Below are positions 1,846 to 29,630 of a stretch of DNA of 29,630 nt, one piece after another. The notes beneath the pieces were generated by a model, which was given only the letters and a program-made list of their open reading frames with translations, was not told where the DNA came from and did not search any database. Source of the stretch: a virus. Lineage: Duplodnaviria > Heunggongvirae > Uroviricota > Caudoviricetes. The stretch lies in the IMG/VR virus record IMGVR_UViG_2693429622_000002. One strand, written 5' to 3'. The first letter of the stretch is position 1, and every line of letters starts with the position of its first letter. Both the position numbers and the translations under genes were made by a program.

Positions 1846-5526
<3,681 letters not shown>

Positions 5527-8269: not shown

Positions 8270-8271
8270 TC

Positions 8272-8296: not shown

Positions 8297-8310
8297 CTGT
8301 GGAGGAGTTC

Positions 8311-8709: not shown

Positions 8710-8720
8710 CGGGAGGCGCT

Positions 8721-9074
8721 GTGGCTGATTTCGATAACCTGTTCGATGCTGCCATTGCCCGCGCCGATGAAACGATACGCGGGTACATGGGAACGTCAGC
8801 CACCATGACATCCGGTGAGCAGTCAGGTGCGGTGATACGTGGTGTTTTTGATGACCCTGAAAATATCAGCTATGCCGGACAGGGCGTGCGCGTTGAAGGC
8901 TCCAGCCCGTCCCTGTTTGTCCGGACTGATGAGGTGCGGCAGCTGCGGCGTGGAGACACGCTGACCATCGGTGAGGAAAATTTCTGGGTAGATCGGGTTT
9001 CGCCGGATGATGGCGGAAGTTGTCATCTCTGGCTTGGACGGGGCGTACCGCCTGCCGTTAACCGTCGCCGCTGA
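8721..9074 (+). CDS. FII: Head-tail connector protein FII (117 aa), GTG start
   Basis: 117 aa; GGGAGG RBS 5 nt upstream of GTG 8721; lambda synteny. Confidence 0.9.
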   Translation: MADFDNLFDAAIARADETIRGYMGTSATMTSGEQSGAVIRGVFDDPENISYAGQGVRVEGSSPSLFVRTDEVRQLRRGDTLTIGEENFWVDRVSPDDGGSCHLWLGRGVPPAVNRRR

Positions 9075-9085
9075 AAGGGGGATGT

Positions 9086-9664
9086 ATGGCCATAAAAGGT
9101 CTTGAGCAGGCCGTTGAAAACCTCAGCCGTATCAGCAAAACGGCGGTGCCCGGTGCCGCCGCAATGGCCATTAACCGCGTTGCTTCATCCGCGATATCGC
9201 AGTCTGCGTCACAGGTTGCCCGTGAGACAAAGGTACGCCGGAAACTGGTAAAGGAAAGGGCCAGGCTGAAAAGGGCCACGGTCAAAAATCCGCAGGCCAG
9301 AATCAAAGTTAACCGGGGGGATTTGCCCGTAATCAAGCTGGGTAATGCGCGGGTTGTCCTGTCCCGCCGCAGGCGTCATAAAAAGGGGCAGCGTTCATCC
9401 CTGAAAGGTGGCGGCAGCGTGCTTGTGGTGGGTAACCGTCGTATTCCCGGCGCGTTTATTCAGCAACTGAAAAACGGCCGGTGGCATGTTATGCAGCGTG
9501 TGGCCGGGAAAAACCGTTACCCCATTGATGTGGTGAAAATCCCGATGGCGGTGCCGCTGACCACGGCGTTTAAACAGAATATTGAACGGATACGGCGTGA
9601 ACGTCTTCCGAAAGAGCTGGGCTATGCGCTGCAGCATCAACTGAGAATGGTAATAAAGCGATGA
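9086..9664 (+). CDS. Z: Tail completion protein Z (192 aa)
   Basis: 192 aa, lambda synteny. Confidence 0.9.
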   Translation: MAIKGLEQAVENLSRISKTAVPGAAAMAINRVASSAISQSASQVARETKVRRKLVKERARLKRATVKNPQARIKVNRGDLPVIKLGNARVVLSRRRRHKKGQRSSLKGGGSVLVVGNRRIPGAFIQQLKNGRWHVMQRVAGKNRYPIDVVKIPMAVPLTTAFKQNIERIRRERLPKELGYALQHQLRMVIKR

Positions 9665-10056
9665 AACATACTGAACTCCGTGCAGCCGTACTGGATGCAC
9701 TGGAGAAGCATGACACCGGGGCGACGCTTTTTGATGGTCGCCCCGCTGTTTTTGATGAGGAAGATTTTCCGGCAATTGCCGTTTATCTCACCGGCGCTGA
9801 ATACACGGGCGAAGAGCTGGACAGCGATACCTGGCAGGCGGAGCTGCATATTGAAGTTTTCCTGCCTGCTCAGGTGCCGGATTCAGAGCTGGATTCGTGG
9901 ATGGAGTCCCGGATTTATCCGGTGATGAGCGATATCCCGGCACTGTCAGATTTGATCACCAGTATGGTGGCCAGCGGCTATGACTACCGGCGCGACGATG
10001 ATGCGGGCCTGTGGAGTTCAGCCGATCTGACTTATGTCATTATCTATGAAATGTGA
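9661..10056 (+). CDS. U: Tail terminator protein U (131 aa)
   Basis: 131 aa, 4-bp overlap with Z, lambda synteny. Confidence 0.9.
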
Positions 10057-10063
10057 GGACGCT

Positions 10064-10804
10064 ATGCCTGTACCAAATCCTACAATGCCGGTGAAAGGTG
10101 CCGGGACCACCCTGTGGGTTTATAAGGGGAGCGGTGACCCTTATGCGAACCCGCTTTCAGACGTTGACTGGTCGCGTCTGGCAAAAGTTAAAGACCTGAC
10201 GCCCGGCGAACTGACCGCTGAGTCCTATGACGACAGCTATCTCGATGATGAAGATGCAGACTGGACTGCGACCGGGCAGGGGCAGAAATCTGCCGGAGAT
10301 ACCAGCTTCACGCTGGCGTGGATGCCCGGAGAGCAGGGGCAGCAGGCGCTGCTGGCGTGGTTTAATGAAGGTGATACCCGTGCCTATAAAATCCGCTTCC
10401 CGAACGGCACGGTCGATGTGTTCCGTGGCTGGGTCAGCAGTATCGGTAAGGCGGTGACGGCGAAGGAGGTGATTACCCGCACGGTGAAGGTCACCAATGT
10501 GGGACGTCCGTCGATGGCAGAAGATCGCAGCACGGTGACGGCGACGACCGGCATGACGGTGACACCCGCCAGTGCTTCCGTAGTGAAAGGGCAGAGCACC
10601 ACGCTGACCGTGGCATTCCAGCCGGATGGCGCAACCGACAAGAGCTTCCGTGCGGTGTCTGCGGATAAAACAAAAGCCACCGTGTCGGTCAGTGGTATGA
10701 CCATCACCGTGAAAGGTGTTGCTGCAGGCAAGGTCAACATTCCGGTCGTATCTGGTAATGGTGAGTTTGCTGCGGTTGCAGAAATCAACGTCACCGCCAG
10801 TTAA
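10064..10804 (+). CDS. V: Major tail protein V (246 aa)
   Basis: [59 protein letters not shown] matches lambda gpV; start at internal ATG 10064. Confidence 0.95.
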
Positions 10805-10819
10805 TCCGGAGAGTCAGCG

Positions 10820-11242
10820 ATGTTCCTGAAAACCGAATCATTTGAACATAACGGTGTGACCGTCACGCTTTCTGAACTGTCAGCCCTGCAGCGTATTGAG
10901 CATCTCGACCTGATGAAACGGCAGGCAGAACAGGCGGAGTCAGACAGCAACCGGAAGTTTACTGTGGAAGACGCCATCAGAACCGGCGCTTTTGTGGTTG
11001 CGATGTCCCTGTGGCATAACCATCCGAAGAAGACGCAGATGCCGTCCATGAATGAAGCCGTTAAACAGATTGAGCAGGAAGTGCTTACCACCTGGCCCAC
11101 AGAGGCAATTTCTCATGCTGAAAACGTGGTGTACCGGCTGTCCGGTATGTATGAGTTTGTGGTGAATGATGCTCCTGAACAGGCAGAGGACGCCGGGCCT
11201 GCAGAGCCTGTTTCTGCGGGAAAGTGTTCGACGGTGAGCTGA
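10820..11242 (+). CDS. G: Tail assembly chaperone G (140 aa)
   Basis: 140 aa; followed by overlapping -1 frame T ORF; lambda synteny. Confidence 0.9.
   Translation: MFLKTESFEHNGVTVTLSELSALQRIEHLDLMKRQAEQAESDSNRKFTVEDAIRTGAFVVAMSLWHNHPKKTQMPSMNEAVKQIEQEVLTTWPTEAISHAENVVYRLSGMYEFVVNDAPEQAEDAGPAEPVSAGKCSTVS
11218..11224 (+). promoter_or_regulatory. Programmed -1 ribosomal frameshift slippery heptamer G GGA AAG (G to G-T)
   Basis: GGGAAAG in the G frame as G.GGA.AAG near the 3' end of G; the -1 frame continues open to 11658. Confidence 0.85.
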
Positions 11243-11658
11243 GTTTTGCCCTGAAACTGGCGCGTGAGATGGGGCGACCCGACTGGCGCGCCATGCTTGC
11301 CGGGATGTCATCCACGGAGTATGCCGACTGGCACCGCTTTTACAGTACCCATTATTTTCATGATGTTCTGCTGGATATGCACTTTTCCGGGCTGACGTAC
11401 ACCGTGCTCAGCCTGTTTTTCAGCGATCCGGAGATGCATCCGCTGGATTTCAGTCTGCTGAACCGGCGCGAGGCTGACGAAGAGCCTGAAGATGATGTGC
11501 TGATGCAGAAAGCGGCAGGGCTTGCCGGAGGTGTCCGCTTTGGCCCGGACGGGAATGAAGTTATCCCCGCTTCCCCGGATGTGGCGGACATGACGGAGGA
11601 TGACGTAATGCTGATGACAGTATCAGAAGGGATCGCAGGAGGAGTCCGGTATGGCTGA
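11224..11658 (+). CDS. T: T segment of the tail assembly chaperone fusion G-T (made only by -1 frameshifting from G)
   Basis: 144-codon open -1 frame starting at the slippery site with no independent start signal; overlaps H start. Confidence 0.85.
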   Translation: MFDGELSFALKLAREMGRPDWRAMLAGMSSTEYADWHRFYSTHYFHDVLLDMHFSGLTYTVLSLFFSDPEMHPLDFSLLNRREADEEPEDDVLMQKAAGLAGGVRFGPDGNEVIPASPDVADMTEDDVMLMTVSEGIAGGVRYG

Positions 11659-14212
11659 ACCGGTAGGCGATCTGGTCGTTGATTTGAGTCTGGATGCGGC
11701 CAGATTTGACGAGCAGATGGCCAGAGTCAGGCGTCATTTTTCCGGTACGGAAAGTGATGCGAAAAAAACAGCGGCAGTCGTTGAACAGTCGCTGAGCCGA
11801 CAGGCGCTGGCTGCACAGAAAGCGGGGATTTCCGTCGGGCAGTATAAAGCCGCCATGCGTATGCTGCCTGCACAGTTCACCGACGTGGCCACGCAGCTTG
11901 CAGGGGGGCAGAATCCCTGGCTGATCCTGCTGCAACAGGGTGGTCAGGTTAAGGACTCCTTCGGCGGGATGATCCCCATGTTCAGGGGGCTTGCCGGCGC
12001 GATCACCCTGCCGATGGTGGGGGCCACCTCGCTGGCGGTGGCGACCGGTGCGCTGGCGTATGCCTGGTATCAGGGCAACTCAACCCTGTCCGATTTCAAC
12101 AAAACGCTGGTCCTTTCCGGTAATCAGGCGGGACTGACGGCAGATCGTATGCTGGTCCTGTCCAGAGCCGGGCAGGCGGCAGGGCTGACGTTTAACCAGA
12201 CCAGCGAGTCACTCAGCGCACTGGTTAAGGCGGGGGTAAGCGGTGAGGCTCAGATTGCGTCCATCAGCCAGAGTGTGGCGCGTTTCTCCTATGCATCCGG
12301 CGTGGAGGTGGACAAGGTCGCTGAAGCCTTCGGGAAGCTGACCACAGACCCGACGTCGGGGCTGACGGCGATGGCACGCCAGTTCCATAACGTGACGGCG
12401 GAGCAGATTGCGTATGTTGCTCAGTTGCAGCGTTCCGGCGATGAAGCCGGGGCATTGCAGGCGGCGAACGAGGCCGCAACGAAAGGGTTTGATGACCAGA
12501 CCCGCCGCCTGAAAGAGAACATGGGCACGCTGGAGACCTGGGCAGACAGGACTGCACGTGCATTCAAATCCATGTGGGATGCGGTGCTGGATATTGGTCG
12601 TCCTGATACCGCGCAGGAGATGCTGATTAAGGCAGAGGCTGCGTTTAAGAAAGCAGACGACATCTGGAATCTGCGCAAGGATGATTATTTCGTTAACGAT
12701 GAAGCACGGGCGCGTTACTGGGATGATCGTGAAAAAAAACGCCTGGAGCGGGATGCAGCCCAAAAGAGGGTAGATCAACAGCGTCAACAGGACAAAAATG
12801 CGCAGCAGCAGAGCGATACCGAAGCGTCACGGCTGAAATATACCGAAGAGGCGCAGAAGGCTTACGAACGGCTGCAGACGCCGCTGGAGAAATATACCGC
12901 CCGTCAGGAAGAACTGAACAAGGCACTGAAAGACGGAAAAATCCTGCAGGCAGATTACAACACGCTGATGGCGGCGGCGAAAAAGGATTATGAAGCGACG
13001 CTGAAAAAGCCGAAACAGTCCGGCGTGAAGGTGTATGCGGGCGATCGTCAGGAAGACAGTGCTCATGCGGCCCTGCTGACGCTTCAGGCAGAACTCCGGA
13101 CGCTGGAGAAGCATGCCGGAGCGAATGAGAAAATCAGCCAGCAGCGCCGGGATTTGTGGAAGGCAGAAAGTCAGTTCGCGGTACTGGAGGAGGCGGCACA
13201 ACGTCGCCAGCTGTCCGCACAGGAGAAATCCCTGCTGGCGCATAAAGACGAGACGCTGGAGTACAAACGCCAGCTGGCTGCACTTGGTGACAAGGTTACG
13301 TATCAGGAGCACCTGAATGCGCTGGCGCAGCAGGCGGATAAATTCGCACAGCAGCAACGGGCAAAACGGGCAGCCATTGATGCGAAAAACCGGGGGCTGA
13401 CTGACCGGCAGGCAGCGCGGGAAGCCACGGAACAGCGCCTGAAGGAACAGTATGGCGATAATCCTCTGGCGCTGAATAACGTCATGTCAGAGCAGAAAAA
13501 GACCTGGGCGGCTGAAGACCAGCTTCGCGGGAGCTGGATGGCAGGCCTGAAGTCCGGCTGGAGTGAGTGGGAAGAGAGCGCCACGGACAGTATGTCACAG
13601 GTTAAAAGTGCAGCCACGCAGACCTTTGATGGTATTGCACAGAATATGGCGGCGATGCTGACCGGCAGTGAACAGAACTGGCGCAGCTTCACCCGCTCCG
13701 TGCTGTCCATGATGACAGAAATTCTGCTTAAGCAGGCAATGGTGGGGATTGTCGGGAGTATCGGCAGCGCCATTGGCGGGGCTGTTGGTGGCGGCGCATC
13801 CGCGTCAGGTGGTACAGCCATTCAGGCCGCTGCGGTGAAATTCCATTTTGCAACCGGGGGATTTACGGGAACCGGCGGCAAATATGAGCCAGCGGGGATT
13901 GTTCACCGTGGTGAATTTGTCTTCACGAAGGAGGCAACCAGCCGGATTGGCGTGGGGAATCTCTACCGGCTGATGCGCGGCTATGCGGAAGGTGGTTATG
14001 TGGGCGGTGCCGGAAGTCCGGCGCAGATGCGGCGGGCTGAAGGCATTAATTTTAATCAGAACAATCACGTGGTGATTCAGAACGACGGTACGAATGGTCT
14101 GCCAGGTCCACAGATGATGAAGGCCGTGTATGACATGGCCCGCAAGGGTGCCCGTGATGAAATTCAGACACAGATGCGTGATGGTGGCCTGTTCTCCGGA
14201 GGTGGACGATGA
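11651..14212 (+). CDS. H: Tail tape measure protein H (853 aa)
   Basis: 853 aa as in lambda gpH; helical Ala/Gln/Glu-rich centre and Gly-rich C-terminal region. Confidence 0.95.
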   Translation: MAEPVGDLVVDLSLDAARFDEQMARVRRHFSGTESDAKKTAAVVEQSLSRQALAAQKAGISVGQYKAAMRMLPAQFTDVATQLAGGQNPWLILLQQGGQVKDSFGGMIPMFRGLAGAITLPMVGATSLAVATGALAYAWYQGNSTLSDFNKTLVLSGNQAGLTADRMLVLSRAGQAAGLTFNQTSESLSALVKAGVSGEAQIASISQSVARFSYASGVEVDKVAEAFGKLTTDPTSGLTAMARQFHNVTAEQIAYVAQLQRSGDEAGALQAANEAATKGFDDQTRRLKENMGTLETWADRTARAFKSMWDAVLDIGRPDTAQEMLIKAEAAFKKADDIWNLRKDDYFVNDEARARYWDDREKKRLERDAAQKRVDQQRQQDKNAQQQSDTEASRLKYTEEAQKAYERLQTPLEKYTARQEELNKALKDGKILQADYNTLMAAAKKDYEATLKKPKQSGVKVYAGDRQEDSAHAALLTLQAELRTLEKHAGANEKISQQRRDLWKAESQFAVLEEAAQRRQLSAQEKSLLAHKDETLEYKRQLAALGDKVTYQEHLNALAQQADKFAQQQRAKRAAIDAKNRGLTDRQAAREATEQRLKEQYGDNPLALNNVMSEQKKTWAAEDQLRGSWMAGLKSGWSEWEESATDSMSQVKSAATQTFDGIAQNMAAMLTGSEQNWRSFTRSVLSMMTEILLKQAMVGIVGSIGSAIGGAVGGGASASGGTAIQAAAVKFHFATGGFTGTGGKYEPAGIVHRGEFVFTKEATSRIGVGNLYRLMRGYAEGGYVGGAGSPAQMRRAEGINFNQNNHVVIQNDGTNGLPGPQMMKAVYDMARKGARDEIQTQMRDGGLFSGGGR

Positions 14213-16614: not shown

Positions 16615-19600
16615 ATGGGTAAAGGCAGCAGTAAGGGGCATACCCCGCGCGAAGCGAAGGACAACCTGAAGTCCACGCAGCTGCTGAGTGTGATCGATGC
16701 CATCAGCGAAGGGCCGGTTGAAGGTCCGGTGGATGGATTAAAAAGCGTGCTGCTGAACAGTACGCCGGTGCTGGACAGTGAGGGGAATACCAACATCTCC
16801 GGCGTCACGGTGGTGTTCCGGGCAGGTGAGCAGGAGCAGTCACCGCCGGAGGGATTTGAATCCTCCGGCTCCGAGACGGTGCTGGGTACGGAAGTGAAAT
16901 ATGACACGCCGATCACCCGGACCATCACGTCGGCAAACATTGACCGACTGCGTTTTACCTTCGGTGTACAGGCACTGGTGGAAACCACCTCAAAGGGAGA
17001 CAGGAATCCGTCTGAAGTTCGCCTGCTGGTTCAGATACAGCGTAACGGTGGCTGGGTGACGGAAAAAGACATCACCATTAAGGGCAAAACCACCTCGCAG
17101 TATCTGGCCTCGGTGGTGGTGGATAACCTGCCGCCGCGCCCGTTTAATATCCGGATGCGCAGAATGACGCCGGACAGCACCACAGACCAGCTGCAGAACA
17201 AAACGCTCTGGTCGTCATACACCGAAATCATCGATGTGAAACAGTGCTACCCGAACACGGCACTGGTCGGCGTACAGGTGGATTCGGAGCAGTTCGGCAG
17301 CCAGCAGGTGAGCCGTAATTATCATCTTCGCGGGCGCATTCTGCAGGTGCCGTCGAACTATAATCCGCAGACGCGGCAATACAGCGGTATCTGGGACGGA
17401 ACGTTAAAACCGGCATACAGCAACAACATGGCCTGGTGTCTGTGGGATATGCTGACCCATCCGCGCTATGGCATGGGGAAACGTCTTGGTGCGGCAGATG
17501 TGGATAAATGGGCGCTGTATGTCATCGGCCAGTACTGTGACCAGTCGGTGCCGGACGGCTTTGGCAGCACGGAGCCGCGCATCACCTGTAATGCCTGGCT
17601 GACCACACAGCGCAAGGCGTGGGATGTGCTCAGTGATTTCTGCTCGGCGATGCGCTGTATGCCGGTATGGAACGGGCAGACGCTGACGTTCGTGCAGGAC
17701 CGACAGTCGGATAAGGTGTGGGCCTATAACCGCAGTAATGTGGTGATGCCGGATGATGGCGCGCCGTTCCGCTACAGTTTCAGCGCCCTGAAAGACCGCC
17801 ATAATGCCGTTGAGGTGAACTGGATTGACCCAGATAACGGCTGGGAGACGGCGACAGAGCTTGTGGAGGATACGCAGGCCATTGCCCGTTACGGTCGTAA
17901 TGTCACGAAGATGGATGCCTTTGGCTGTACCAGCCGGGGGCAGGCACACCGCGCCGGGCTGTGGCTGATTAAAACGGAACTGCTGGAGACGCAGACCGTG
18001 GATTTCAGCGTGGGTGCTGAAGGGCTTCGTCATGTACCGGGCGATGTCATTGAAATCTGCGATGATGACTATGCCGGTATCCGCACCGGCGGGCGCGTGC
18101 TGGCGGTGAACAGCCAGACCCGGACGCTGACGCTCGACCGTGAAATCACGCTGCCATCCTCCGGCACCACGCTGATAAGCCTGGTTGACGGGCAGGGGAA
18201 TCCGGTCAGCGTGGAGGTCCAGTCCGTCACCGACGGCGTGAAGGTAAAAGTGAGCCGTGTTCCTGACGGTGTTGCTGAATACAGCGTGTGGGGGCTGAAG
18301 CTGCCGACGCTGCACCAGCGATTGTTCCGCTGCGTGAGTATCCGTGAGAACGACGACGGCACGTATGCCATCACCGCCGTGCAGCATGTGCCGGAAAAAG
18401 AAGCCATCGTGGATAACGGGGCGCACTTTGACGGCGACCAGAGCGGCACGGTGAATGGTGTCACGCCGCCAGCGGTGCAGCACCTGACTGCCGAAGTCAC
18501 CGCAGACAGCGGGGAATATCAGGTGCTGGCGCGCTGGGACACGCCGAAGGTGGTGAAGGGCGTGAGCTTCCTGCTCCGTCTGACCGTAACAGCGGATGAC
18601 GGCAGTGAGCGGCTGGTCAGCACGGCCCGGACGACGGAAACCACTTACCGCTTCACACAACTGGCGCTGGGGAACTACAGGCTGACAGTCCGGGCAGTAA
18701 ATGCGTGGGGGCAGCAGGGCGATCCGGCGTCGGTATCGTTCCGGATTGCCGCACCGGCAGCGCTGTCGCGGATTGAGCTGACGCCGGGCTATTTTCAGAT
18801 AACCGCCACGCCGCATCTTGCGGTTTATGATCCGACGGTACAGTTTGAGTTCTGGTTCTCGGAAAAGCGGATTGCGGATATCAGGCAGGTTGAAACCACA
18901 GCACGCTATCTTGGCACGGCGCTGTACTGGATAGCCGCCAGTATCAATATCAAACCGGGCCATGATTATTACTTTTATATCCGCAGTGTGAACACCGTTG
19001 GCAAATCGGCATTCGTGGAGGCTGTTGGTCAGCCGAGTGATGATGCATCCGGTTATCTGGATTTTTTCAAAGGCGAGATAGGGAAAACCCATCTGGCTCA
19101 GGAGCTGTGGACGCAGATTGATAACGGTCAGCTTGCGCCTGACCTGGCTGAAATCAGGACGTCCATTACGGATGTCAGCAATGAAATCACGCAGACCGTC
19201 AATAAGAAACTGGAAGACCAGAGTGCGGCAATTCAGCAGATACAGAAGGTTCAGGTTGATACAAATAATAACCTGAACAGCATGTGGGCTGTGAAGCTGC
19301 AGCAGATGCAGGACGGACGCCTTTATATCGCGGGTATTGGTGCCGGTATTGAGAACACCCCTGACGGCATGCAGAGTCAGGTGCTGCTGGCGGCGGACAG
19401 GATTGCGATGGTTAATCCTGCGAATGGCAACACAAAACCGATGTTTGTTGGTCAGGGCGATCAGATATTCATGAACGACGTGTTCCTGAAACGCCTGACG
19501 GCCCCCACCATTACCAGCGGTGGAAATCCATCGGCATTTTCCCTGACTCCGGACGGAAAGCTGACCGCTAAAAATGCGGATATCAGTGGCAGTGTGAATG

Positions 19601-20112
19601 CGAACGCCGGGACGCTCAACAATGTCACGGTAAATGAAAACTGTACGATTAAGGGCATGCTGGAGGCGACTCAGGTCAGAGGTGACTTCGTTAAAGCTGT
19701 ATCCAAATCATTTCCGAAACAGGCTGGTACGTGGGGTAACACGGAAACACCAAACGGGACGGTTACAGTCACCATAAGCGATGATCATAACTTTGACCGC
19801 CAGATTATTATTCCGCCCATTATTTTTAACGGTATAGCGTATGACGATCCGGGGAGCGGAAATAACCCAGGAGGCACGCGATACACGGGTTATGGTTTTG
19901 AAGTTCGCAAAAACGGCGTATTAATCGCATCCAGAGAAACTAAAGGTGCCATTCCCGGTAGTTACAGTGCAGTTATTGATATGCCTAGTGGTGGTGGTAG
20001 CGTCACTCTGGAGTTTAAGATTTTCCAGAAAGGCAATCAGGGGGCAGGCAATATCACCGACTGTACGGTGATTGTGACCAAAAAAGCGGCTTCCGGCATC
20101 AGTATTCGTTGA
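16615..20112 (+). CDS. J: Central tail fibre / host specificity protein J (1165 aa)
   Basis: Long ORF after I with conserved J N-terminal and central regions; about 33 aa longer than the 1132-aa lambda J I recall, so the C-terminal receptor-binding region is probably different from lambda's. Confidence 0.9.
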
Positions 20113-20134
20113 AATATTTATAACCCCAATAAAT

Positions 20135-20160
20135 GGCGTCAGGAATGACGCCTTTTTTAT
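20135..20160 (+). terminator. Intrinsic terminator after J (GGCGTCA-GGAA-TGACGCC + TTTTTTATT)
   Basis: Perfect 7-bp GC-rich stem and U-tract read directly. Confidence 0.7.
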
Positions 20161-20182
20161 TGCAGAAAAGCGAGAGGTAATT

Positions 20183-20296
20183 ATGCGTAAAGTTTGTGCA
20201 GCCATTTTGTCCGCAGCCATTTGCCTGGCCGTATCCGGTGCGCCTGCATGGGCGTCTGAACATCAGTCCACGCTGAGCGCGGGGTATCTTCATGCC
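20183..20296 (+). CDS. lom: lom 5' fragment (outer-membrane Lom/Ail family), cut by the assembly gap
   Basis: MRKVCAAILSAAICLAVSGAPAWASEHQSTLSAGYLHA, identical to the start of the 24601 copy; runs into the N run. Confidence 0.7.
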
Positions 20297-20307
20297 NNNN
20301 NNNNNNN
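20297..20307. other. Assembly gap (11 N)
   Basis: Run of n characters in the sequence. Confidence 1.
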
Positions 20308-21641
20308 CGCCTGTCACTATTGAACTGATACCGGGGTATTTTCAGATAACGGCGGTCCCGAAACTGGCTGTATATGACCCGACGGTGCAGTTTGAGTTCT
20401 GGTTTTCGGAAAAGCGGATTGCGGATATCAGGCAGGTTGAAACCACAGCACGCTATCTTGGCACGGCGCTGTACTGGATAGCCGCCAGTATCAATATCAG
20501 GCCGGGCCATGATTATTATTTTTACGTTCGCAGTGTGAACACCGTTGGCAAATCGGCATTTGTGGAGGCCATCGGTCGGGCGAGCGATGATGCAGAAGGT
20601 TATCTGAATTTTTATAAAGGGTTGATCAATAAAACGCATCTCGGCAAGGAGTTGTGGACGCAGATTGATAACGGTCAGCTTGCGCCGGACCTGACTGAAA
20701 TCAGGACGTCCATTACGAATGTCAGCAATGAAATCACGCAAACCGTCAATAAAAAACTGGAAAATCAGAGTGCTGCAATCCAGCAGATACAGAAAGTTCA
20801 GGTTGATACAAATAATAACCTGAACAGCATGTGGGCTGTGAAGCTGCAACAGATGAAGGACGGACGCCTTTATATTGCGGGTATCGGTGCCGGTATTGAG
20901 AATACGCCAGCAGGAATGCAGAGTCAGGTGCTGCTGGCGGCAGACAGGATTGCGATGATTAATCCTGCGAATGGCAACACAAAGCCGATGTTTGTTGGTC
21001 AGGGCGATCAGATATTCATGAACGACGTGTTCCTGAAATGCCTGACGGCTCCGACCATTACCAGCGGCGGTAATCCTCCGGCATTTTCCCTGACACCTGG
21101 CGGACGGCTGACGGCGAAAAATGCCGATATCAGCGGTAACGTGAACGCGAACTCCGGGACGCTCAACAACGTCACGATTAATAAGAACTGTCGGGTTCTG
21201 GGAAAATTGTCCGCGAACCAGATTGAAGGCGATCTCGTTAAAACAGTGGGCAAACCTTTCCCACGGGACTCCCGGGCACCGGAGAGGTGGCCATCAGGGA
21301 CCATTACCGTCAGGGTTTATGACGATCAGCCGTTTGATCGGCAAATTGTTATTCCCGCGGTGGCGTTTCGCGGTGCTAAACATGAGCGGAAGAATAACAA
21401 TATTTATTCGTCATGCCGCCTGATAGTGAAGAAAAACGGTGCTGAAATTTATAACCGAACGACCCTGGATAATACGCTGATATATACGGGTGTTATTGAT
21501 ATGCCTGCCGGTCACGGTCACATGACGCTGGAGTTTTCTGTATCGGCATGGCTGGTAAATGGCTGGTATCCCACAGCAAGTATCAGCGATTTGCTGGTTG
21601 TGGTGATGAAGAAAGCCACTGCAGGCATCACGATTAGCTGA
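20308..21641 (+). CDS. J: J 3' fragment, variant allele (C-terminal about 444 aa; distinct receptor-binding tail ending ..[14 protein letters not shown])
   Basis: About 90% nucleotide identity by eye to 18778 onward in the conserved part, diverging strongly over the last 130 codons; 5' end missing at the gap. Confidence 0.8.
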
Positions 21642-21660
21642 ATTTTATAACCCAGATACG

Positions 21661-21686
21661 GGCACCAGAAATGGTGCCTTTTTTAT
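21661..21686 (+). terminator. Intrinsic terminator after variant J (GGCACC-AGAAAT-GGTGCC + TTTTTTATT)
   Basis: Stem differs in sequence from the 20135 copy but base pairing is kept (compensatory changes). Confidence 0.7.
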
Positions 21687-21708
21687 TGCAGAAAAGCGAG
21701 AGGTAATT

Positions 21709-22308
21709 ATGCGTAAAGTTTGTGCAGCCATTTTGTCCGCAGCCATTTGCCTGGCCGTATCCGGTGCGCCTGCATGGGCGTCTGAACATCAGTCCACGCT
21801 GAGCGCCGGGTATCTTCAGACCCATACTGATATGCCAGGCAGCGATGACCTGAAGGGCATTAACGTGAAATACCGTTATGAGTTTACGGACACGCTGGGG
21901 CTGATTACGTCATTCAGTTATGCCAACGCTGAAGATGAGCAAAAAACGCATTACAGCGATACCCGCTGGCATGAGGATTCCGTGCGTAACCGCTGGTTCA
22001 GCGTGATGGCGGGGCCGTCTGTGCGCGTGAATGAATGGTTCAGCGCGTATGCGATGGCGGGCGTGGCTTACAGCCGTGTGTCGACCTTCTCCGGGGATTA
22101 TCTCCGCGTAACTGACAACAAGGGGAAAACGCACGATGTGCTGACCGGAAGTGATGGCGGTCGCCACAGCAACACGTCTCTGGCGTGGGGGGCTGGCGTG
22201 CAGTTTAACCCGACCGAATCCGTGGCCATTGACCTTGCTTATGAAGGTTCCGGCAGTGGTGACTGGCGCACTGACGGTTTCATCGTGGGTGTCGGTTATA
22301 AGTTCTGA
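21709..22308 (+). CDS. lom: Outer membrane protein Lom (Ail/Lom family beta-barrel), intact, 199 aa
   Basis: Signal-peptide-like N-terminus; C-terminus AYEGSGSGDWRTDGFIVGVGYKF matches lambda Lom from memory; GAGAGG RBS. Confidence 0.9.
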   Translation: MRKVCAAILSAAICLAVSGAPAWASEHQSTLSAGYLQTHTDMPGSDDLKGINVKYRYEFTDTLGLITSFSYANAEDEQKTHYSDTRWHEDSVRNRWFSVMAGPSVRVNEWFSAYAMAGVAYSRVSTFSGDYLRVTDNKGKTHDVLTGSDGGRHSNTSLAWGAGVQFNPTESVAIDLAYEGSGSGDWRTDGFIVGVGYKF

Positions 22309-22335
22309 TTAGCCAGGTAACACAGTGTTATGACT

Positions 22336-22361
22336 GCCCGCTGGTTCAGGCGGGCTTTTTG
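22336..22361 (+). terminator. Intrinsic terminator after lom (GCCCGC-TGGTTCA-GGCGGGC + TTTTTGT)
   Basis: Read directly. Confidence 0.7.
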
Positions 22362-22371
22362 TGGGGTGAAT

Positions 22372-22698
22372 ATGGCAGTAAAGATTTCAGGTGTACTGAA
22401 AGATGGGGCGGGTAAACCTGTCGTAAATTGTGCGATTGAACTGCGGGCCAGAAGAACCAGTCCGACCGTTGTGGCACACGTTGTTGCCACTTGCGTGACG
22501 GACAATAACGGTGCTTATGTGATTGAGGCTGAGCCGGGGTATTACGAGGTTGCGCTTCACTGTAACGGCTGGCAGCCAACCCGTGTCGGGGATATTGATG
22601 TGGCACCGACTGATGCACCGGGGACACTGAACGCGTTTCTGAATGCACCAAAGGATGGTGATTTACGTCCGGAGGTGATGAAGTGTCAGCGCCAGTGA
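22372..22698 (+). pseudogene. stf: Side tail fibre stf, variant N-terminal domain, truncated after about 100 codons by an IS21-family insertion
   Basis: [12 protein letters not shown].. aligns with the start of the full stf at 25182 but diverges; reading frame leaves stf-like sequence right after ..DLRPE and stops at 22698 inside the IS-like DNA. Confidence 0.7.
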
Positions 22699-22927
22699 TA
22701 TAAGACGGTAATTCGCCATTTGGATTGTCCGCTCCACCCAACATGTTGTTTCCTTAAGGTTCTCACACCAGAAAGGACATCAACATGCTGAGCAGAGAGG
22801 ACTTTTACATGATAAAGCAAATGCGCCAGCAGGGCGCGTACATCGTCGATATTGCGACTCAGATTGGTTGCTCTGAACGGACGGTCAGACGCTACCTCAA
22901 ATACCCTGAACCGCCAGCCAGAAAGAC
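22684..22927 (+). mobile_element. istA: IS21-family element, 5' end only (terminal sequence plus first 47 codons of istA), cut by the assembly gap
   Basis: ORF 22785-22927 encodes MLSREDFYMIKQMRQQGAYIVDIATQIGCSERTVRRYLKYPEPPARK, which I recognise as an IS21-type IstA N-terminal HTH; boundary near 22676-22684 inferred from where the stf alignment breaks. Confidence 0.65.
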
Positions 22928-22936
22928 NNNNNNNNN
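22928..22936. other. Assembly gap (9 N)
   Basis: Run of n characters in the sequence. Confidence 1.
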
Positions 22937-24530
22937 TCAGGTGCTGGCGCGCTGGGACACGCCGAAGGTGGTGAAGGGCGTGAGCTTCCTGCTCCGTCTG
23001 ACCGTAACAGCGGATGACGGCAGTGAGCGGCTGGTCAGCACGGCCCGGACGACGGAAACCACTTACCGCTTCACACAACTGGCGCTGGGGAACTACAGGC
23101 TGACAGTCCGGGCAGTAAATGCGTGGGGGCAGCAGGGCGATCCGGCGTCGGTATCGTTCCGGATTGCCGCACCGGCAGCGCTGTCGCGGATTGAGCTGAC
23201 GCCGGGCTATTTTCAGATAACCGCCACGCCGCATCTTGCGGTTTATGATCCGACGGTACAGTTTGAGTTCTGGTTCTCGGAAAAGCGGATTGCGGATATC
23301 AGGCAGGTTGAAACCACAGCACGCTATCTTGGCACGGCGCTGTACTGGATAGCCGCCAGTATCAATATCAAACCGGGCCATGATTATTACTTTTATATCC
23401 GCAGTGTGAACACCGTTGGCAAATCGGCATTCGTGGAGGCTGTTGGTCAGCCGAGTGATGATGCATCCGGTTATCTGGATTTTTTCAAAGGCGAGATAGG
23501 GAAAACCCATCTGGCTCAGGAGCTGTGGACGCAGATTGATAACGGTCAGCTTGCGCCTGACCTGGCTGAAATCAGGACGTCCATTACGGATGTCAGCAAT
23601 GAAATCACGCAGACCGTCAATAAGAAACTGGAAGACCAGAGTGCGGCAATTCAGCAGATACAGAAGGTTCAGGTTGATACAAATAATAACCTGAACAGCA
23701 TGTGGGCTGTGAAGCTGCAGCAGATGCAGGACGGACGCCTTTATATCGCGGGTATTGGTGCCGGTATTGAGAACACCCCTGACGGCATGCAGAGTCAGGT
23801 GCTGCTGGCGGCGGACAGGATTGCGATGGTTAATCCTGCGAATGGCAACACAAAACCGATGTTTGTTGGTCAGGGCGATCAGATATTCATGAACGACGTG
23901 TTCCTGAAACGCCTGACGGCCCCCACCATTACCAGCGGTGGAAATCCATCGGCATTTTCCCTGACTCCGGACGGAAAGCTGACCGCTAAAAATGCGGATA
24001 TCAGTGGCAGTGTGAATGCGAACGCCGGGACGCTCAACAATGTCACGGTAAATGAAAACTGTACGATTAAGGGCATGCTGGAGGCGACTCAGGTCAGAGG
24101 TGACTTCGTTAAAGCTGTATCCAAATCATTTCCGAAACAGGCTGGTACGTGGGGTAACACGGAAACACCAAACGGGACGGTTACAGTCACCATAAGCGAT
24201 GATCATAACTTTGACCGCCAGATTATTATTCCGCCCATTATTTTTAACGGTATAGCGTATGACGATCCGGGGAGCGGAAATAACCCAGGAGGCACGCGAT
24301 ACACGGGTTATGGTTTTGAAGTTCGCAAAAACGGCGTATTAATCGCATCCAGAGAAACTAAAGGTGCCATTCCCGGTAGTTACAGTGCAGTTATTGATAT
24401 GCCTAGTGGTGGTGGTAGCGTCACTCTGGAGTTTAAGATTTTCCAGAAAGGCAATCAGGGGGCAGGCAATATCACCGACTGTACGGTGATTGTGACCAAA
24501 AAAGCGGCTTCCGGCATCAGTATTCGTTGA
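22937..24530 (+). CDS. J: J 3' fragment (C-terminal 531 codons), exact duplicate of 18519-20112
   Basis: Nucleotide-identical to the corresponding part of the full J as far as I compared; 5' end missing at the gap. Confidence 0.8.
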
Positions 24531-24552
24531 AATATTTATAACCCCAATAAAT

Positions 24553-24578
24553 GGCGTCAGGAATGACGCCTTTTTTAT
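24553..24578 (+). terminator. Intrinsic terminator after J (duplicate of 20135-20160)
   Basis: Identical hairpin and U-tract. Confidence 0.7.
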
Positions 24579-24600
24579 TGCAGAAAAGCGAGAGGTAATT

Positions 24601-25083
24601 ATGCGTAAAGTTTGTGCAGCCATTTTGTCCGCAGCCATTTGCCTGGCCGTATCCGGTGCGCCTGCATGGGCGTCTGAACATCAGTCCACGCTGAGCGCGG
24701 GGTATCTTCATGCCCGGACCAACGTTCCCGGCAGTGATGATCTGAACGGGATTAACGTGAAATACCGTTATGAGTTTACGGATACGCTGGGGCTGGTGAC
24801 GTCATTCAGCTATGCAGGAGACAAGAATCGCCAGCTGACCCGTTACAGCGATACCCGCTGGCATGAAGATTCCGTGCGTAACCGCTGGTTCAGCGTGATG
24901 GCGGGGCCGTCTGTGCGCGTGAATGAATGGTTCAGCGCGTATGCGATGGCGGGTGTGGCTTACAGCCGTGTGTCGACTTTTTCCGGGGATTATATCCGCG
25001 TAACTGACAATAAGGGGAAAACGCACGATGTGCTGACCGGAAGTGATGACGGTCGCCACAGCAACACGTCTCTGGCGCACTGA
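24601..25083 (+). pseudogene. lom: lom with an 83-bp internal deletion near the 3' end (frameshift, premature stop; C-terminal strands lost)
   Basis: Compared with 21709-22308: ..TCTGGCG[83 bp missing]CACTGACGG..; the deletion is flanked by a CTGGCG direct repeat in the intact copy; ORF ends ..NTSLAH*. Confidence 0.75.
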
Positions 25084-25144
25084 CGGTTTCATCGTGGGTG
25101 TCGGTTATAAATTCTGATTAGCCAGGTAACACAGTGTTATGACA

Positions 25145-25170
25145 GCCCGCCGGTTCAGGCGGGCTTTTTT
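25145..25170 (+). terminator. Intrinsic terminator after lom (GCCCGCC-GGTTCA-GGCGGGC + TTTTTTGT)
   Basis: Read directly. Confidence 0.7.
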
Positions 25171-25181
25171 GTGGGGTGAAT

Positions 25182-28100
25182 ATGGCAGTAAAGATTTCAG
25201 GTGTACTGAAAGACGGCACAGGAAAACCGGTACAGAACTGCACAATCCAGCTGAAAGCAAAACGTAACAGCACCACGGTGGTGGTGAACACGCTGGCCTC
25301 AGAAAATCCGGATGAAGCCGGGCGTTACAGCATGGACGTTGAGTACGGTCAGTACAGCGTTATTCTGTTGGTGGAAGGATTCCCGCCGTCACATGCCGGG
25401 ACCATCACCGTGTATGAAGATTCCCGACCCGGTACGCTGAATGATTTTCTCGGTGCCATGACGGAGGATGATGCCCGTCCGGAGGCACTGCGCCGTTTTG
25501 AGCTGATGGTGGAAGAGGTGGCGCGTAACGCGTCCGCGGTGGCACAGAACACGGCAGCCGCGAAGAAATCAGCCAGCGATGCCAGCACATCAGCCCGTGA
25601 GGCGGCAACCCATGCGACTGATGCTGCAGATTCAGCACGTGCAGCCAGCACGTCAGCCGGACAGGCCGCTTCGTCGGCTCAGTCAGCGTCTTCCAGCGCA
25701 GGAACGGCATCAACAAAGGCCACTGAAGCCTCAAAAAGTGCTGCCGCTGCAGAGTCCTCAAAAAGCGCGGCGGCTACCAGTGCCGGTGCGGCGAAAACGT
25801 TAGAAACGAATGCGGCAGCGTCACAACAATCAGCAGCCACTTCTGCATCCACCGCGACCACGAAAGCGTCAGAAGCTGCCACCTCAGCCCGGGATGCGTC
25901 GGCTTCAAAAGAGGCGGCAAAATCATCAGAAACGAACGCATCATCAAGCGCCAGTAGCGCAGCTTCCTCGGCGACGGCGGCTGCAAATTCTGCGAAGGCG
26001 GCCAAAACGTCCGAGACGAACGCCAGGTCTTCTGAAACGGCAGCGGGACAGAGTGCCTCAGCTGCGGCAGGCTCAAAAACAGCGGCTGCGTCGTCTGCCA
26101 GCGCCGCGTCAACAAGTGCCGGGCAGGCCTCAGCCAGTGCCACCGCCGCCGGAAAATCGGCAGAAAGCGCCGCATCATCCGCTTCAACAGCCACAACGAA
26201 GGCTGGCGAAGCCACTGAGCAGGCCACGGCAGCAGCGAGGTCAGCTTCCGCAGCGAAGACATCCGAAACGAACGCGAAAGCGTCGGAAACCCGTGCAGAA
26301 TCCTCAAAAACGGCTGCCGCATCGTCCGCCAGTTCGGCGGCGTCATCGGCATCATCGGCGTCTGCTTCAAAAGATGAGGCGACCAGACAGGCGTCAGCAG
26401 CGAAGGGCAGCGCCACGACGGCATCCACGAAGGCGACAGAGGCTGCTGGTAGTGCGACGGCAGCAGCTCAGAGCAAAAGTACGGCGGAATCTGCAGCAAC
26501 GCGCGCTGAGACAGCGGCAAAACGGGCAGAGGATATTGCATCCGCCGTGGCGCTTGAGGATGCGAGCACGACGAAAAAGGGGATAGTACAGCTCAGTAGT
26601 GCGACTAACAGCACTTCCGAGTCACTGGCGGCAACACCAAAAGCCGTTAAGGCCGCGTATGACCTGGCTAACGGGAAATACACCGCACAGGATGCAACGA
26701 CAGCACAGAAAGGGATAATCCAGCTAAGCAGCGCGACCAACAGCACGTCTGAAACGCTGGCGGCAACGCCAAAGGCAGTAAAAGCAGCCAATGACAATGC
26801 TGAGAAACGTCTGCAGAAAGATCAGAACGGTGCGGATATCCCTGGCAAAGACACCTTTACGAAAAATATTGGTGCCTGCCGTGCCTTCGGTGGGTCAGTA
26901 AGCACAACAACAGGAAACTGGACGACTGCACAGTTTATCGAGTGGCTGGATTCTCAGGGAGCATTTAACCATCCATACTGGATGTGCAAGGGTTCCTGGT
27001 CTTATGGCAATAATAAAATCATTACTGATACTGGCTGCGGTAATATTCATCTCGCCGGAGCTGTCATTGAAGTAATGGGGATAAAGTCAGCGATGACGAT
27101 CCGCATTACCACTCCGACCACATCCAGCGGTGGCGGAACAACCAACGCCCAGTTTACCTATATTAATCACGGAACAGATTATTCACCTGGCTGGCGAAGG
27201 GACTATAACTCCAGAAATAAGCCAACGGCATCAGAGATCGGGGCGCTACCGTCAGGTGGAACAGCAGTATCATCAGTTAATCTGGCTTCAAAAGGTCGGG
27301 TAGCCGCGCTGACAGACAATACGCAGGGGGCAGCAGGTCTTGAGTTATACGAGGTGTATAACAACGGATATCCAACAGCGTATGGAAATATCATTCACCT
27401 GAAAGGGATGACAGCCGTTGGCGAAGGTGAGTTACTCATCGGCTGGAGTGGTACAAGCGGTGCTCATGCTCCGGCATTTATTCGTTCACGACGGGATACG
27501 ACCGACGCAAACTGGTCGCCGTGGGCGCAGCTTTACACCTCGGCTCATCCTCCTGCAGAGTTTTATCCAGTCGGTGCACCAATCCCGTGGCCATCAGATA
27601 CCGTTCCGTCTGGTTATGCCCTGATGCAGGGGCAGACTTTTGACAAATCTGCTTACCCGAAACTTGCAGCCGCTTATCCGTCAGGCGTGATCCCTGATAT
27701 GCGTGGCTGGACGATTAAGGGCAAGCCCGCCAGTGGTCGTGCCGTATTGTCTCAGGAACAGGATGGCATTAAATCGCACACCCACAGCGCCAGCGCATCC
27801 AGTACGGATTTGGGGACGAAAACCACATCGTCGTTTGATTACGGCACTAAATCCACGAATAACACCGGGGCGCATACGCACAGTCTGAGCGGCTCTACAA
27901 GTTCAGCTGGGGCCCACCAACATAGTCAGACTGGGCCCAGAACGAATAGCGGGAGTCAACCTACTGGAATGTTTCCGGCAGGGAGTACTCAAGTTAGCGG
28001 GACTAATCAGGTTGGTATCAGTGGCTCATTAACCAGTGGCACCTCCCAATGGGTAGGTAAATCATCTTCAGAAGGAAACCATACACACTCACTGTCCGGC

Positions 28101-28265
28101 ACAGCAGCATCTGCGGGTGCACACGCGCATACTGTCGGTATTGGTGCTCATACGCACTCTGTTGCGATTGGTTCACATGGACACACCATCACCGTTAACG
28201 CTGCTGGTAACGCGGAAAACACCGTCAAAAACATCGCATTTAACTATATTGTGAGGCTCGCATAA
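25182..28265 (+). CDS. stf: Side tail fibre protein Stf (about 1027 aa from ATG 25182): N-terminal attachment domain, long Ala/Ser/Thr-rich repetitive shaft, C-terminal tip with repeated His-x-His motifs
   Basis: N-terminus [67 protein letters not shown] matches lambda Stf from memory; tip motifs [52 protein letters not shown] at about 27770-28195; GTG at 25176 is likely a track artefact. Confidence 0.9.
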
Positions 28266-28846
28266 TGGCATTCAGAATGAGTGAACAAGCACGGACCATA
28301 AAAATTTATAACCTGCTGGCCGGAACTAATGAATTTATTGGTGAAGGTGACGCATATATTCCGCCTCATACAGGTCTGCCTGCAAACAGTACCGATATTG
28401 CACCGCCAGATATTCCGGCTGGTTTCGTGGCTGTTTTCAACAGTGATGAGTCATCGTGGCATCTCGTTGAAGATCATCGGGGTAAAACGGTTTATGACGT
28501 GGCTTCCGGCGACGCGTTATTTATTTCTGAACTCGGCTCATTACCGGAAAATGTCACCTGGTTATCCCCGGAAGGGGAGTTTCAGAAGTGGAACGGCACA
28601 GCCTGGGTGAAGGATACGGAAGCAGAAAAACTGTTCCGGATCCGGGAGGCGGAAGAAACAAAAAACAGCCTGATGCAGGTAGCCAGTGAGCATATAGCGC
28701 CGCTTCAGGATGCTGTGGATCTGGAGATCGCAACGGAGAAAGAAACCTTGTTGCTGGAAGCTTGGAAAAAGTATCGGGTGTTGCTGAACCGTGTTGATAC
28801 ATCAACTGCACCGGATATTGAATGGCCAGTAGCACCTATAGGGTAA
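28265..28846 (+). CDS. tfa: Tail fibre assembly chaperone Tfa (193 aa)
   Basis: [54 protein letters not shown] matches lambda Tfa from memory; ATG overlaps the stf stop (TAATG). Confidence 0.9.
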
Positions 28847-28930
28847 ATTCGTAATGATTACCTAAATACGTTATTCTTTTGTTAAAAAAGTGATTTTGCT
28901 ATAGGTAGGGAGTATGTTCTTGGATTAAGA

Positions 28931-28962
28931 ATAAAAAATCGCCATGAAAGAGCTTCATGGCG
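28931..28962 (-). terminator. Intrinsic terminator oriented for leftward transcription (CGCCATGAA-AGAGC-TTCATGGCG, then T-run on the minus strand)
   Basis: Perfect 9-bp inverted repeat at 28940-28962; on the minus strand it is followed by ATTTTTTAT (plus 28931-28939). Implies a leftward transcript originating to the right. Confidence 0.5.
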
Positions 28963-29630
28963 AGTACATAAACGTACAAAATGTGATGAAAGTAGAGTGG
29001 CGTAAGCCACTATATTAAGATATGACAATAGCGAAGAAAAGTAAATAACATTTTATGGACGTTTAATTGTTAATTATAAAAACTAGAGTGCCCGATATTG
29101 TTTATCTTGCTTTAAAATAATGTACTCAAACCAAATTTTTGAGCTAAAAGCTCAAATAATATAAATGCAATAATAATGTTTAATAAGACAATTAGCTTGC
29201 TTTGTATTTTCATTTCGGAATACTGTTAAGTAACTTTGATGACCCTAACAATAGATCGGAATTTTCTTAGAGTCAATGGTCACTGTTTTTGCTTGCAAAG
29301 CAAATGTTTTGGTGGTTATAAGTCGTCTTAATATAGTCACGCATGCAACTTGTTCCATGCGGAGATTAAAGATTGGAATATAACGCGAAGATGGAATTAA
29401 ATTACATTTGCAATAATTAATTTATTATTACTCAATAATTACCGATATTATTATTGTAAATTAATCATTAGAATGCAAAAAGAAATGTAACGGCAAAATA
29501 AGAGGACGATAGCTGAGAAAAAAGCGTGCTTTCCCAATCTGGGGCAAATCACGTCTGAATGACACCTGAAAACAGGTGGTAGCCTCAAGAAGGCTGGTGA
29601 TGCTGCCAACTTACTGATTTAGTGTATGAT

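What the first reader, a model, noticed from the sequence alone, without database searches (positions are those of the whole stretch)
22372..22927. IS21-family insertion truncating a variant side-tail-fibre gene
The second stf copy follows the full stf to ..RPE and then reads into sequence encoding an IstA-like N-terminus (MLSREDFYMIKQMRQQGAYIVDIATQIGCSERTVRRYLKYPEPPARK). This points to IS disruption of stf in one prophage and would also explain a contig break here, since IS copies are repeated in the genome. The N-terminal domain of this stf copy is itself strongly diverged from the full copy.
Basis: partly seen in the sequence, partly recalled or inferred. Interest (0 to 1): 0.4.

Follow-up and report, generated by a model that had tools for sequence, protein, structure and literature searches.

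The report
IS21 insertion truncating prophage tail-fibre gene
A copy of the mobile element IS21 sits inside a side-tail-fibre gene of a decayed prophage, and the same junction is present in public Shigella sonnei genomes, so it is an ordinary, already recorded gene disruption that also explains why the assembly breaks here.

Summary

- **Window layout:** the window is three contigs joined by N runs. The finding lies on the 2.6-kb middle contig (20308-22927), which reads J' C-terminus, lom', stf' N-terminus, then an IS end.
- **The gene:** stf' (ATG 22372) is a diverged paralogue, 50% aa identity to the full stf at 25182. Its intact 470-aa form exists in E. coli.
- **The junction:** homology to intact stf' stops after codon 104 (22683, RPEVMK). 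At 22684 the left end of IS21 begins (TGTCAGCGCCA...). The stf' frame reads CQRQ and stops at 22696-98. istA starts separately at 22785 in another frame, and the contig ends 244 nt into the IS.
- **Identity of the IS:** the 244 nt are 100% identical to annotated IS21 copies, with up to five matching places on the S. sonnei virulence plasmid. That repetition explains the contig break.
- **Public record:** the 108-aa read-through product equals GenBank ALZ55769.1 of S. sonnei FORC_011. Seven further S. sonnei draft contigs carry it and end 31 or 53 nt into IS21.
- **Later decay:** in FORC_011 this IS21 copy was split by IS600 and truncated at nt 1098, and 433 nt of stf' are lost. No target-site duplication can be recovered.

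This is ordinary IS-driven decay and is already known.

The parts
20308..22927 (+). Separate small contig (p2) from a second, degenerate lambdoid prophage: J' C-terminal part, lom', stf' N-terminus, IS21 left end. It is bounded by N runs at 20297-20307 and 22928-22936.
   Evidence: N runs located. p2 is only ~89% identical to p1/p3. It is 99.8% identical to S. sonnei FORC_011 CP010829.1 (L004 7937-10556).
21709..22308 (+). lom' (Ail/Lom outer-membrane protein, 199 aa), the gene upstream of stf'.
   Evidence: ORF. Annotated Ail/Lom family in the matching E. coli loci. PF06316.
22336..22365 (+). Terminator-like hairpin plus T run between lom' and stf'.
   Evidence: Consensus scan. Conserved in the other lom-stf intergenic region. 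Function not tested.
22372..22683 (+). stf' N-terminal 104 codons (MAVKISG...RPEVMK). This is all that remains of the variant side-tail-fibre gene upstream of the IS.
   Evidence: PF08400 at 126 bits. 99.7% nt identity to intact 470-aa genes, ending at 22683. 50% aa identity to the full stf.
22684..22927 (+). IS21 left end, nt 1-244 of the 2130-bp element, in the same orientation as stf'. The contig ends inside it.
   Evidence: 244/244 identical to the IS21 copies in L002 and L004. 100% identical to copies on S. sonnei pINV plasmids. Left terminus defined by comparing three differently flanked copies.
22684..22694 (+). Terminal inverted repeat / L1 repeat, TGTCAGCGCCA. Its partner at the right end of full copies is TGGCGTTGACA.
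   Evidence: L1/L2 architecture as described in PMC11208146.
22684..22698 (+). IS-encoded tail of the truncated stf' ORF: TGT CAG CGC CAG TGA, read as CQRQ then stop.
   Evidence: Translation. The resulting 108-aa product equals ALZ55769.1.
22726..22736 (+). Subterminal L2 repeat, TGTCCGCTCCA (9 of 11 identical to L1).
22785..22927 (+). istA start: ATG at IS nt 102, 47 complete codons of the N-terminal helix-turn-helix region plus 2 nt, cut by the contig end.
   Evidence: Identical to the first 47 residues of the annotated IstA WP_000952382.1. HTH_23 and HTH_7 hits. Best NCBIfam hit NF033546, below cut-off as expected for a fragment.
25182..28265 (+). Full-length stf of the other prophage (p1+p3 locus), used as the comparison copy.
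   Evidence: PF08400, Phage_fiber_2 and Collar domains. ORF.

Best explanation
A copy of IS21 transposed into the side-tail-fibre gene (stf') of a defective lambdoid prophage in the Shigella sonnei lineage.

- Position and orientation: it landed exactly between codons 104 and 105, in the same orientation as the gene.
- Effect on the gene: the ORF now ends after 104 native residues plus CQRQ. It keeps only about three quarters of the N-terminal domain (PF08400 positions 1-104 of 134) and loses the whole shaft and receptor-binding part. The fibre gene is therefore inactivated; this last step is inferred.
- What the window holds: only the first 244 nt of the IS. These are the inverted repeat with its L1 and L2 repeats (the units of the IS21 terminal repeats), the istA ribosome-binding region, and the first 47 codons of the IstA helix-turn-helix domain.
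- Contig break: IS21 is present in several identical copies in S. sonnei, on the chromosome and on the pINV plasmid. The assembler could not extend through it, so the contig stops.
- How the insertion arose (established knowledge of the family, not tested here): the IstA DDE transposase and the IstB AAA+ helper act together, and insertion makes a short target duplication.
- Present state of this copy: in the complete genome of S. sonnei FORC_011 it is a dead remnant. An IS600 is inserted at IS21 nt 428, and the element is truncated at nt 1098 against a second, 5'-truncated IS600. That IS600 abuts stf' at nt 746. So part of istA, all of istB, the right inverted repeat, any target duplication and stf' nt 313-745 are gone.
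For: - Junction defined to the base by comparison with intact stf' (L001) and with two differently flanked IS21 copies (L002, L003).
- IS segment 100% identical to annotated IS21. Full-length IstA and IstB of such a copy pass the NCBIfam IS21 models (284 and 302 bits).
- The same junction occurs in a complete S. sonnei chromosome and in 7 independent draft contigs that stop 31 or 53 nt into IS21.
- The exact 108-aa product is deposited as FORC11_1838. Partial forms ending at residues 99-104 are seen on 45 to at least 1000 Shigella contigs, nearly all S. sonnei. Deposited partial S. boydii and E. coli proteins read through the junction as RPEVMKRFEEMV.
- No complete E. coli genome out of 5426 carries the junction.
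- The rest of stf' (from nt 746) and its downstream DUF4376 gene lie 3.5 kb further on, in the same orientation, in FORC_011. The intervening IS600 elements were identified.
- IS21 is multi-copy in S. sonnei.
Against: - No target-site duplication and no right IS21 end next to stf' could be found. There were 0 hits in GTDB representative genomes and JGI metagenomes. Simple transposition into this site is therefore inferred from the clean left junction and the collinear remainder of the gene, not shown.
- The window's own genome cannot be followed past IS21 nt 244. That it has the same downstream decay as FORC_011 is inferred from 99.8% identity of the contig.
- The five differences from FORC_011 are clustered (20446-20450 and 21747-21750) and are not explained.
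- Loss of function of the truncated protein is inferred, not tested.
Confidence: 0.93

Rival explanations
1. The stf'-IS21 junction was not made by insertion at this site. Instead, homologous recombination or an adjacent deletion or inversion involving another IS21 copy brought an IS21 left end next to a broken stf'.
For: No target-site duplication or right end is recoverable. S. sonnei is known for IS-mediated deletions and inversions, including ones between IS21 copies.
Against: In FORC_011 the 3' part of stf' and the gene after it lie directly downstream of the IS cluster, collinear and in the original orientation. This is what in-situ insertion followed by local decay predicts. The left junction falls exactly at the IS21 terminus.
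Confidence: 0.05
2. The junction is an assembly or scaffolding chimera. The window is visibly a concatenation of contigs, with an exact 1778-nt overlap between two of them.
For: The window has two N joins. p1 and p3 share 1778 identical bases. ORFs read across the N runs artefactually.
Against: The junction at 22683/22684 lies inside a contig, 244 nt from its end. It is reproduced base for base in a complete chromosome and in 7 independent assemblies.
Confidence: 0.01
3. The truncated 108-aa N-terminal Stf fragment is retained because it has a function of its own, for example binding tail tips of related phages, rather than being a pseudogene remnant.
For: The fragment is conserved without change across S. 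sonnei assemblies, and it keeps an intact start and most of one domain.
Against: S. sonnei is highly clonal (my own knowledge, not tested here), so conservation carries no weight. The surrounding prophage is riddled with IS600 fragments and lacks its head and left-arm genes next to the tail genes. No expression or selection test was possible.
Confidence: 0.01

Closest known systems
IS21 (archetype of the IS21 family; istA transposase plus istB AAA+ helper), as annotated on S. sonnei pINV and E. coli plasmids
   Same: - 244/244 nt identical to the left end of annotated 2130-bp copies.
- Terminal TGTCAGCGCCA inverted repeat with a second subterminal repeat (L1, L2).
- istA ATG at nt 102.
- The 47 N-terminal IstA residues are identical.
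   Different: Only the left 244 nt are in the window. At this locus in FORC_011 the element is split by IS600 and lacks everything beyond nt 1098, so it cannot transpose on its own. Identity to the ISfinder/R68.45 reference sequence itself could not be checked; RP4/RK2 records are not in the collections.
Locus FORC11_1838 (ALZ55769.1) in Shigella sonnei FORC_011, CP010829.1
   Same: The 108-aa product is identical, the junction is identical, and the contig is 99.8% identical over 2620 nt.
   Different: Five clustered base differences in J' and lom' (20446-20450, 21747-21750). The window's strain is therefore not FORC_011 itself, or one of the two assemblies has paralogue-induced errors there.
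Intact variant side tail fibre WP_046880233.1 (470 aa) of E. coli CFSAN029787 and related strains
   Same: 99.7% nt identity up to codon 104, and the same J-lom-stf gene order.
   Different: It is uninterrupted, continuing RPEVMKRFEEMVAQ..., and is followed by a DUF4376 gene and an ipaH pseudogene.
Lambda-type Stf/StfR side tail fibre (the 1029-aa copy at 25176-28265, ATG 25182, in this window)
   Same: The same N-terminal domain family (PF08400), an identical first 12 residues, and a near-identical upstream region.
   Different: Only 50% aa identity over the 104 residues. The intact stf' is less than half as long and pairs with a different downstream gene.

Membership tests
IS21 family insertion sequence | Terminal inverted repeats with 5'-TG...CA-3' ends | tested here: met
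   The left end TGTCAGCGCCA is at 22684. Full copies that are identical over these 244 nt end in TGGCGTTGACA. The right end is not in the window.
IS21 family insertion sequence | Repeated subterminal elements (L1, L2 / R1, R2) within the ends | tested here: met
   L1 is TGTCAGCGCCA at IS nt 1 and L2 is TGTCCGCTCCA at nt 43 (window 22684 and 22726). The right end of full copies has TGTCAACGCCA, TGCCCGCT and TGTCCGCT. The architecture matches the description in PMC11208146.
IS21 family insertion sequence | istA encoding a transposase with an N-terminal HTH and a DDE catalytic domain | tested here: inconclusive
   The window holds only 47 codons. These give HTH hits, and the best NCBIfam hit is NF033546 at 23.5 bits, below the cut-off of 160. 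The identical full-length copy (L002) scores 284 bits and matches the solved IS5376 IstA structure 8b4h at E = 2e-82.
IS21 family insertion sequence | istB AAA+ helper ATPase gene downstream of istA | not testable with these tools
   The contig ends at IS nt 244. Full copies carry istB (NF038214, 302 bits). At this locus in FORC_011 istB has been deleted, so this copy is a remnant.
IS21 family insertion sequence | Short (4-8 bp) target-site duplication | not testable with these tools
   The right junction is absent from the window and deleted in FORC_011. The predicted right junction gave 0 hits in two collections. An unrelated IS21 copy (L003) shows a 4-bp duplication, AGAA.
Lambda-like side tail fibre (Stf) proteins | Prophage tail fibre N-terminal domain (PF08400) encoded after J and lom | tested here: met
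   126 bits against a cut-off of 26.6, covering profile positions 1-104 of 134. Gene order J'-lom'-stf'.
Lambda-like side tail fibre (Stf) proteins | Shaft and C-terminal receptor-binding region, with a downstream assembly or partner gene | tested here: not met
   Absent from the window copy, which is cut at codon 104. It is present in intact homologues (470 aa plus a DUF4376 gene). The window copy is therefore a pseudogene fragment of a family member.

The most novel reading that the evidence does not exclude
The conserved 108-aa Stf N-terminal fragment, or the IS21 end fused to it, has been co-opted in S. sonnei. It might act as a tail-tip-binding decoy against related phages, or as a regulatory read-through into IS21, rather than being inert debris.
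Probability: 0.01. Interest if true: 0.3.

Novelty: already known. Interest (0 to 1): 0.07.

Why it matters
It matters little beyond annotation.

- **Annotation:** the small contig 20308-22927 belongs to a second, decayed prophage of a Shigella sonnei-like genome. The stf fragment should be annotated as a pseudogene disrupted by IS21.
- **Assembly:** contig ends in this window are caused by IS copies, IS21 here and IS1 at the window's end. ORFs that run across the N joins are artefacts.
- **Background:** IS-driven decay of prophage genes in Shigella is well documented.
- **Possible use:** the junction could serve as a lineage marker for S. sonnei. It was absent from all 5426 complete E. coli genomes searched, and deposited partial S. 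boydii and E. coli proteins read through the site uninterrupted.

Tried and rejected
- **Right junction and target duplication.** I scanned for IS21 right end + 0-12 nt + stf' nt 313 onward in GTDB representative genomes and JGI metagenomes. Both gave 0 hits. The left junction was also absent from GTDB representatives. That was expected, because I believe Shigella is merged into E. coli there, with one representative genome. The window itself holds no IS21 right end and no continuation of stf'.
- **Archetype IS21 on RP4/RK2/R68.** I tried to compare with it by accession (BN000925, L27758, PP591959, AM261760). None is in the collections. Identity to the ISfinder reference therefore rests on PGAP naming plus my recollection of the IstA sequence.
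- **Possible IS21 target preference.** BLAST seemed to extend IS21 matches 5-8 nt into the stf' flank. The flanks were GGTGATGAAG, ACGTGAAGG and GGTGAAGAA. I rejected a target preference. The listing ranks copies by coverage, so it selects those whose flanks happen to resemble the query, and only two independent insertions were involved.
- **stf'-IstA fusion protein.** Rejected, because the frames differ and a stop lies at 22696-98.
- **Chimeric junction.** Rejected on eight independent assemblies.

Full report
**Layout of the window**

The window is not one continuous sequence. It has two N runs, at 20297-20307 and 22928-22936. These separate three pieces: p1 (1-20296), p2 (20308-22927) and p3 (22937-29630).

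The last 1778 nt of p1 (18519-20296) are 100% identical to the first 1778 nt of p3. So p1 and p3 are overlapping contigs of one lambdoid prophage tail region: J, lom, a 1029-aa stf, then tfa. p2 is a separate 2.6-kb contig, only ~89% identical to them. It carries the C-terminal part of a second J gene, a second lom (21709-22308) and the finding.

**The observation**

An ORF starts at ATG 22372 and has the Prophage tail fibre N-terminal domain (PF08400, 126 bits, profile positions 1-104 of 134). The upstream intergenic region and the first ~55 nt are almost identical to those of the full stf at 25182. After that the two diverge sharply, to 50% aa identity over 104 residues.

This variant gene exists intact in E. 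coli. Nine complete genomes match 22330-22683 at 99.7%. In E. coli CFSAN029787 it is a 470-aa 'prophage tail fiber N-terminal domain-containing protein', preceded by J and lom and followed by a DUF4376 gene and an ipaH pseudogene.

**The junction**

- Homology to intact stf' ends at 22683.
- The intact gene continues ...GGTGATGAAG|CGCTTTGAGGAAATGG (RPEVMK|RFEEMV).
- The window continues ...GGTGATGAAG|TGTCAGCGCCAGTGATATAAG.
- Two IS21 copies with unrelated left flanks (L002, L003) begin at the same TGTCAGCGCC. The IS terminus is therefore at 22684.
- The insertion lies exactly between codons 104 and 105.
- The stf' frame reads four IS-encoded codons (CQRQ) and stops at 22696-98.
- istA starts at 22785 (IS nt 102) in another frame, so there is no fusion protein.
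Both are 8-9 nt too early.

**Identity of the IS**

- 22684-22927 is 244/244 identical to the first 244 nt of a 2130-bp element annotated 'IS21-like element IS21 family transposase' plus 'helper ATPase IstB'.
- It is also identical to copies on S. sonnei pINV plasmids, with up to 5 matching places per plasmid.
- The full-length IstA and IstB of such a copy score 284 and 302 bits against the NCBIfam IS21 models.
- That IstA matches the solved IS5376 IstA structure in sequence.
- The window segment shows the terminal repeat TGTCAGCGCCA (L1) and a second repeat TGTCCGCTCCA 42 nt further in (L2). This is the end architecture described for IS21 (PMC11208146).
- The 47-residue IstA fragment alone gives only helix-turn-helix hits and a sub-threshold best hit to NF033546, as expected for its length.

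**Where it comes from**

- The 108-aa read-through product is found, as an exact sequence, in the complete chromosome of Shigella sonnei FORC_011 (CP010829.1, ALZ55769.1 'FORC11_1838').
- It is also on seven S. sonnei draft contigs.
- p2 is 99.8% identical to the FORC_011 locus. The five differences are clustered at 20446-20450 and 21747-21750.
- All seven draft contigs end 31 or 53 nt into IS21.
- Partial proteins ending at residues 99-104 are recorded on 45 to at least 1000 Shigella contigs, nearly all S. sonnei.
- Deposited partial S. boydii and E. coli proteins read straight through the site (RPEVMKRFEE...).
- None of 5426 complete E. coli genomes has the junction.
- On this sampling the insertion looks like a feature of the S. 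sonnei lineage.
- Papers list IS21 among the 12 IS types of S. sonnei 53G (PMC7373316).
- They also describe several chromosomal and pINV copies.

**What lies beyond the contig end**

In FORC_011 the order after the junction is as follows:

1. IS21 nt 1-428.
2. A complete IS600 in the opposite orientation, flanked by the duplication GTT.
3. IS21 nt 426-1098.
4. A second IS600 lacking about 85 nt of its left end, joined directly to IS21 nt 1098.
5. stf' from nt 746, followed by the DUF4376 gene.

The 3' part of istA, all of istB, the right inverted repeat, any target duplication and stf' nt 313-745 have therefore been lost. The rest of this prophage is also decayed. IS600 fragments directly precede the tail genes M-L-K-I-J.

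A pattern for the predicted right junction found nothing in two public collections. An unrelated IS21 copy (L003) shows the 4-bp duplication AGAA. If this insertion was a simple one, the duplicated bases would have been GAAG.

**Mechanism**

Shown:
- A clean IS21 left terminus inside stf'.
- The collinear 3' remainder of the gene downstream in a complete genome.
- Multi-copy identical IS21 in the same species.

Inferred:
- The junction arose by ordinary IS21 transposition, in which the IstA DDE transposase acts with the IstB AAA+ ATPase. This is established for the family and was not tested here.
- The truncated 104-residue fragment is non-functional.
- The window's strain shares the downstream decay seen in FORC_011.

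Rivals: an IS21-mediated rearrangement rather than insertion (about 5%), an assembly chimera (about 1%; contradicted by eight independent assemblies), and a co-opted fragment (about 1%).

**Verdict**

The finding is real and correctly interpreted, apart from small coordinate errors and the implied read-through into IstA. It is ordinary. IS-mediated pseudogenisation of prophage genes is typical of Shigella, and this very junction is already in GenBank. Novelty: already known. Interest: low.

Noticed in passing
window 18519-20296 and 22937-24714: These two stretches are 100% identical over 1778 nt. Pieces p1 and p3 are overlapping contigs of one locus, placed on either side of the unrelated contig p2. 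The 'third' J C-terminus and lom start in the window are therefore a duplication artefact of the concatenation, not extra gene copies.
   Followed up: yes
window 22785-24530 and 20292-21641 (+), 20183-20323: ORFs that read across the N runs are artefacts of contig joining. One example is the 581-aa 'IstA N-terminus + J C-terminus' ORF. Another is the lom start running into J'.
   Followed up: yes
window 24601-25083 (lom of p3), deletion point near 25071-25076: The lom gene next to the full stf has an 83-nt deletion relative to lom' (equivalent to 22182-22264). The deletion lies between two CTGGCG direct repeats. It shifts the frame and ends the ORF at 160 aa instead of 199, which looks like a slippage or microhomology deletion making a pseudogene.
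   Followed up: partly
window 29597-29630: The window ends 34 nt into a sequence present about 9 times per E. coli genome (67,197 places). In an annotated genome it lies 20 nt upstream of an IS1A transposase gene. This is the IS1 left inverted repeat, so this contig end is also caused by an IS.
   Followed up: yes
window 20446-20450 and 21747-21750: The only five differences between p2 and S. sonnei FORC_011 fall in two tight clusters, in J' and at the start of lom'. This suggests paralogue-driven assembly noise or gene conversion between the two prophages rather than point divergence.
   Followed up: no
L004 (CP010829.1) 10313-13854: In S. sonnei FORC_011 the IS21 copy is nested. IS600 is inserted at IS21 nt 428 with a GTT duplication. 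The IS21 is then truncated at nt 1098 and fused to an IS600 lacking ~85 nt of its end, which in turn abuts stf' nt 746. Further IS600 fragments at 1503-3064 cut the prophage upstream of the tail genes.
   Followed up: yes
L001 (E. coli CFSAN029787) 8209-9851: In the E. coli strain with the intact stf', the prophage end carries a frameshifted T3SS effector gene, ipaHe, just downstream of the fibre genes. At the equivalent place S. sonnei FORC_011 has an ABC-3/ZnuA-type transporter operon.
   Followed up: no
window 22336-22365 and 25145-25175: A conserved GC-rich hairpin plus T run (terminator-like) sits between lom and stf in both prophage copies, immediately before the stf start codon region.
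   Followed up: partly
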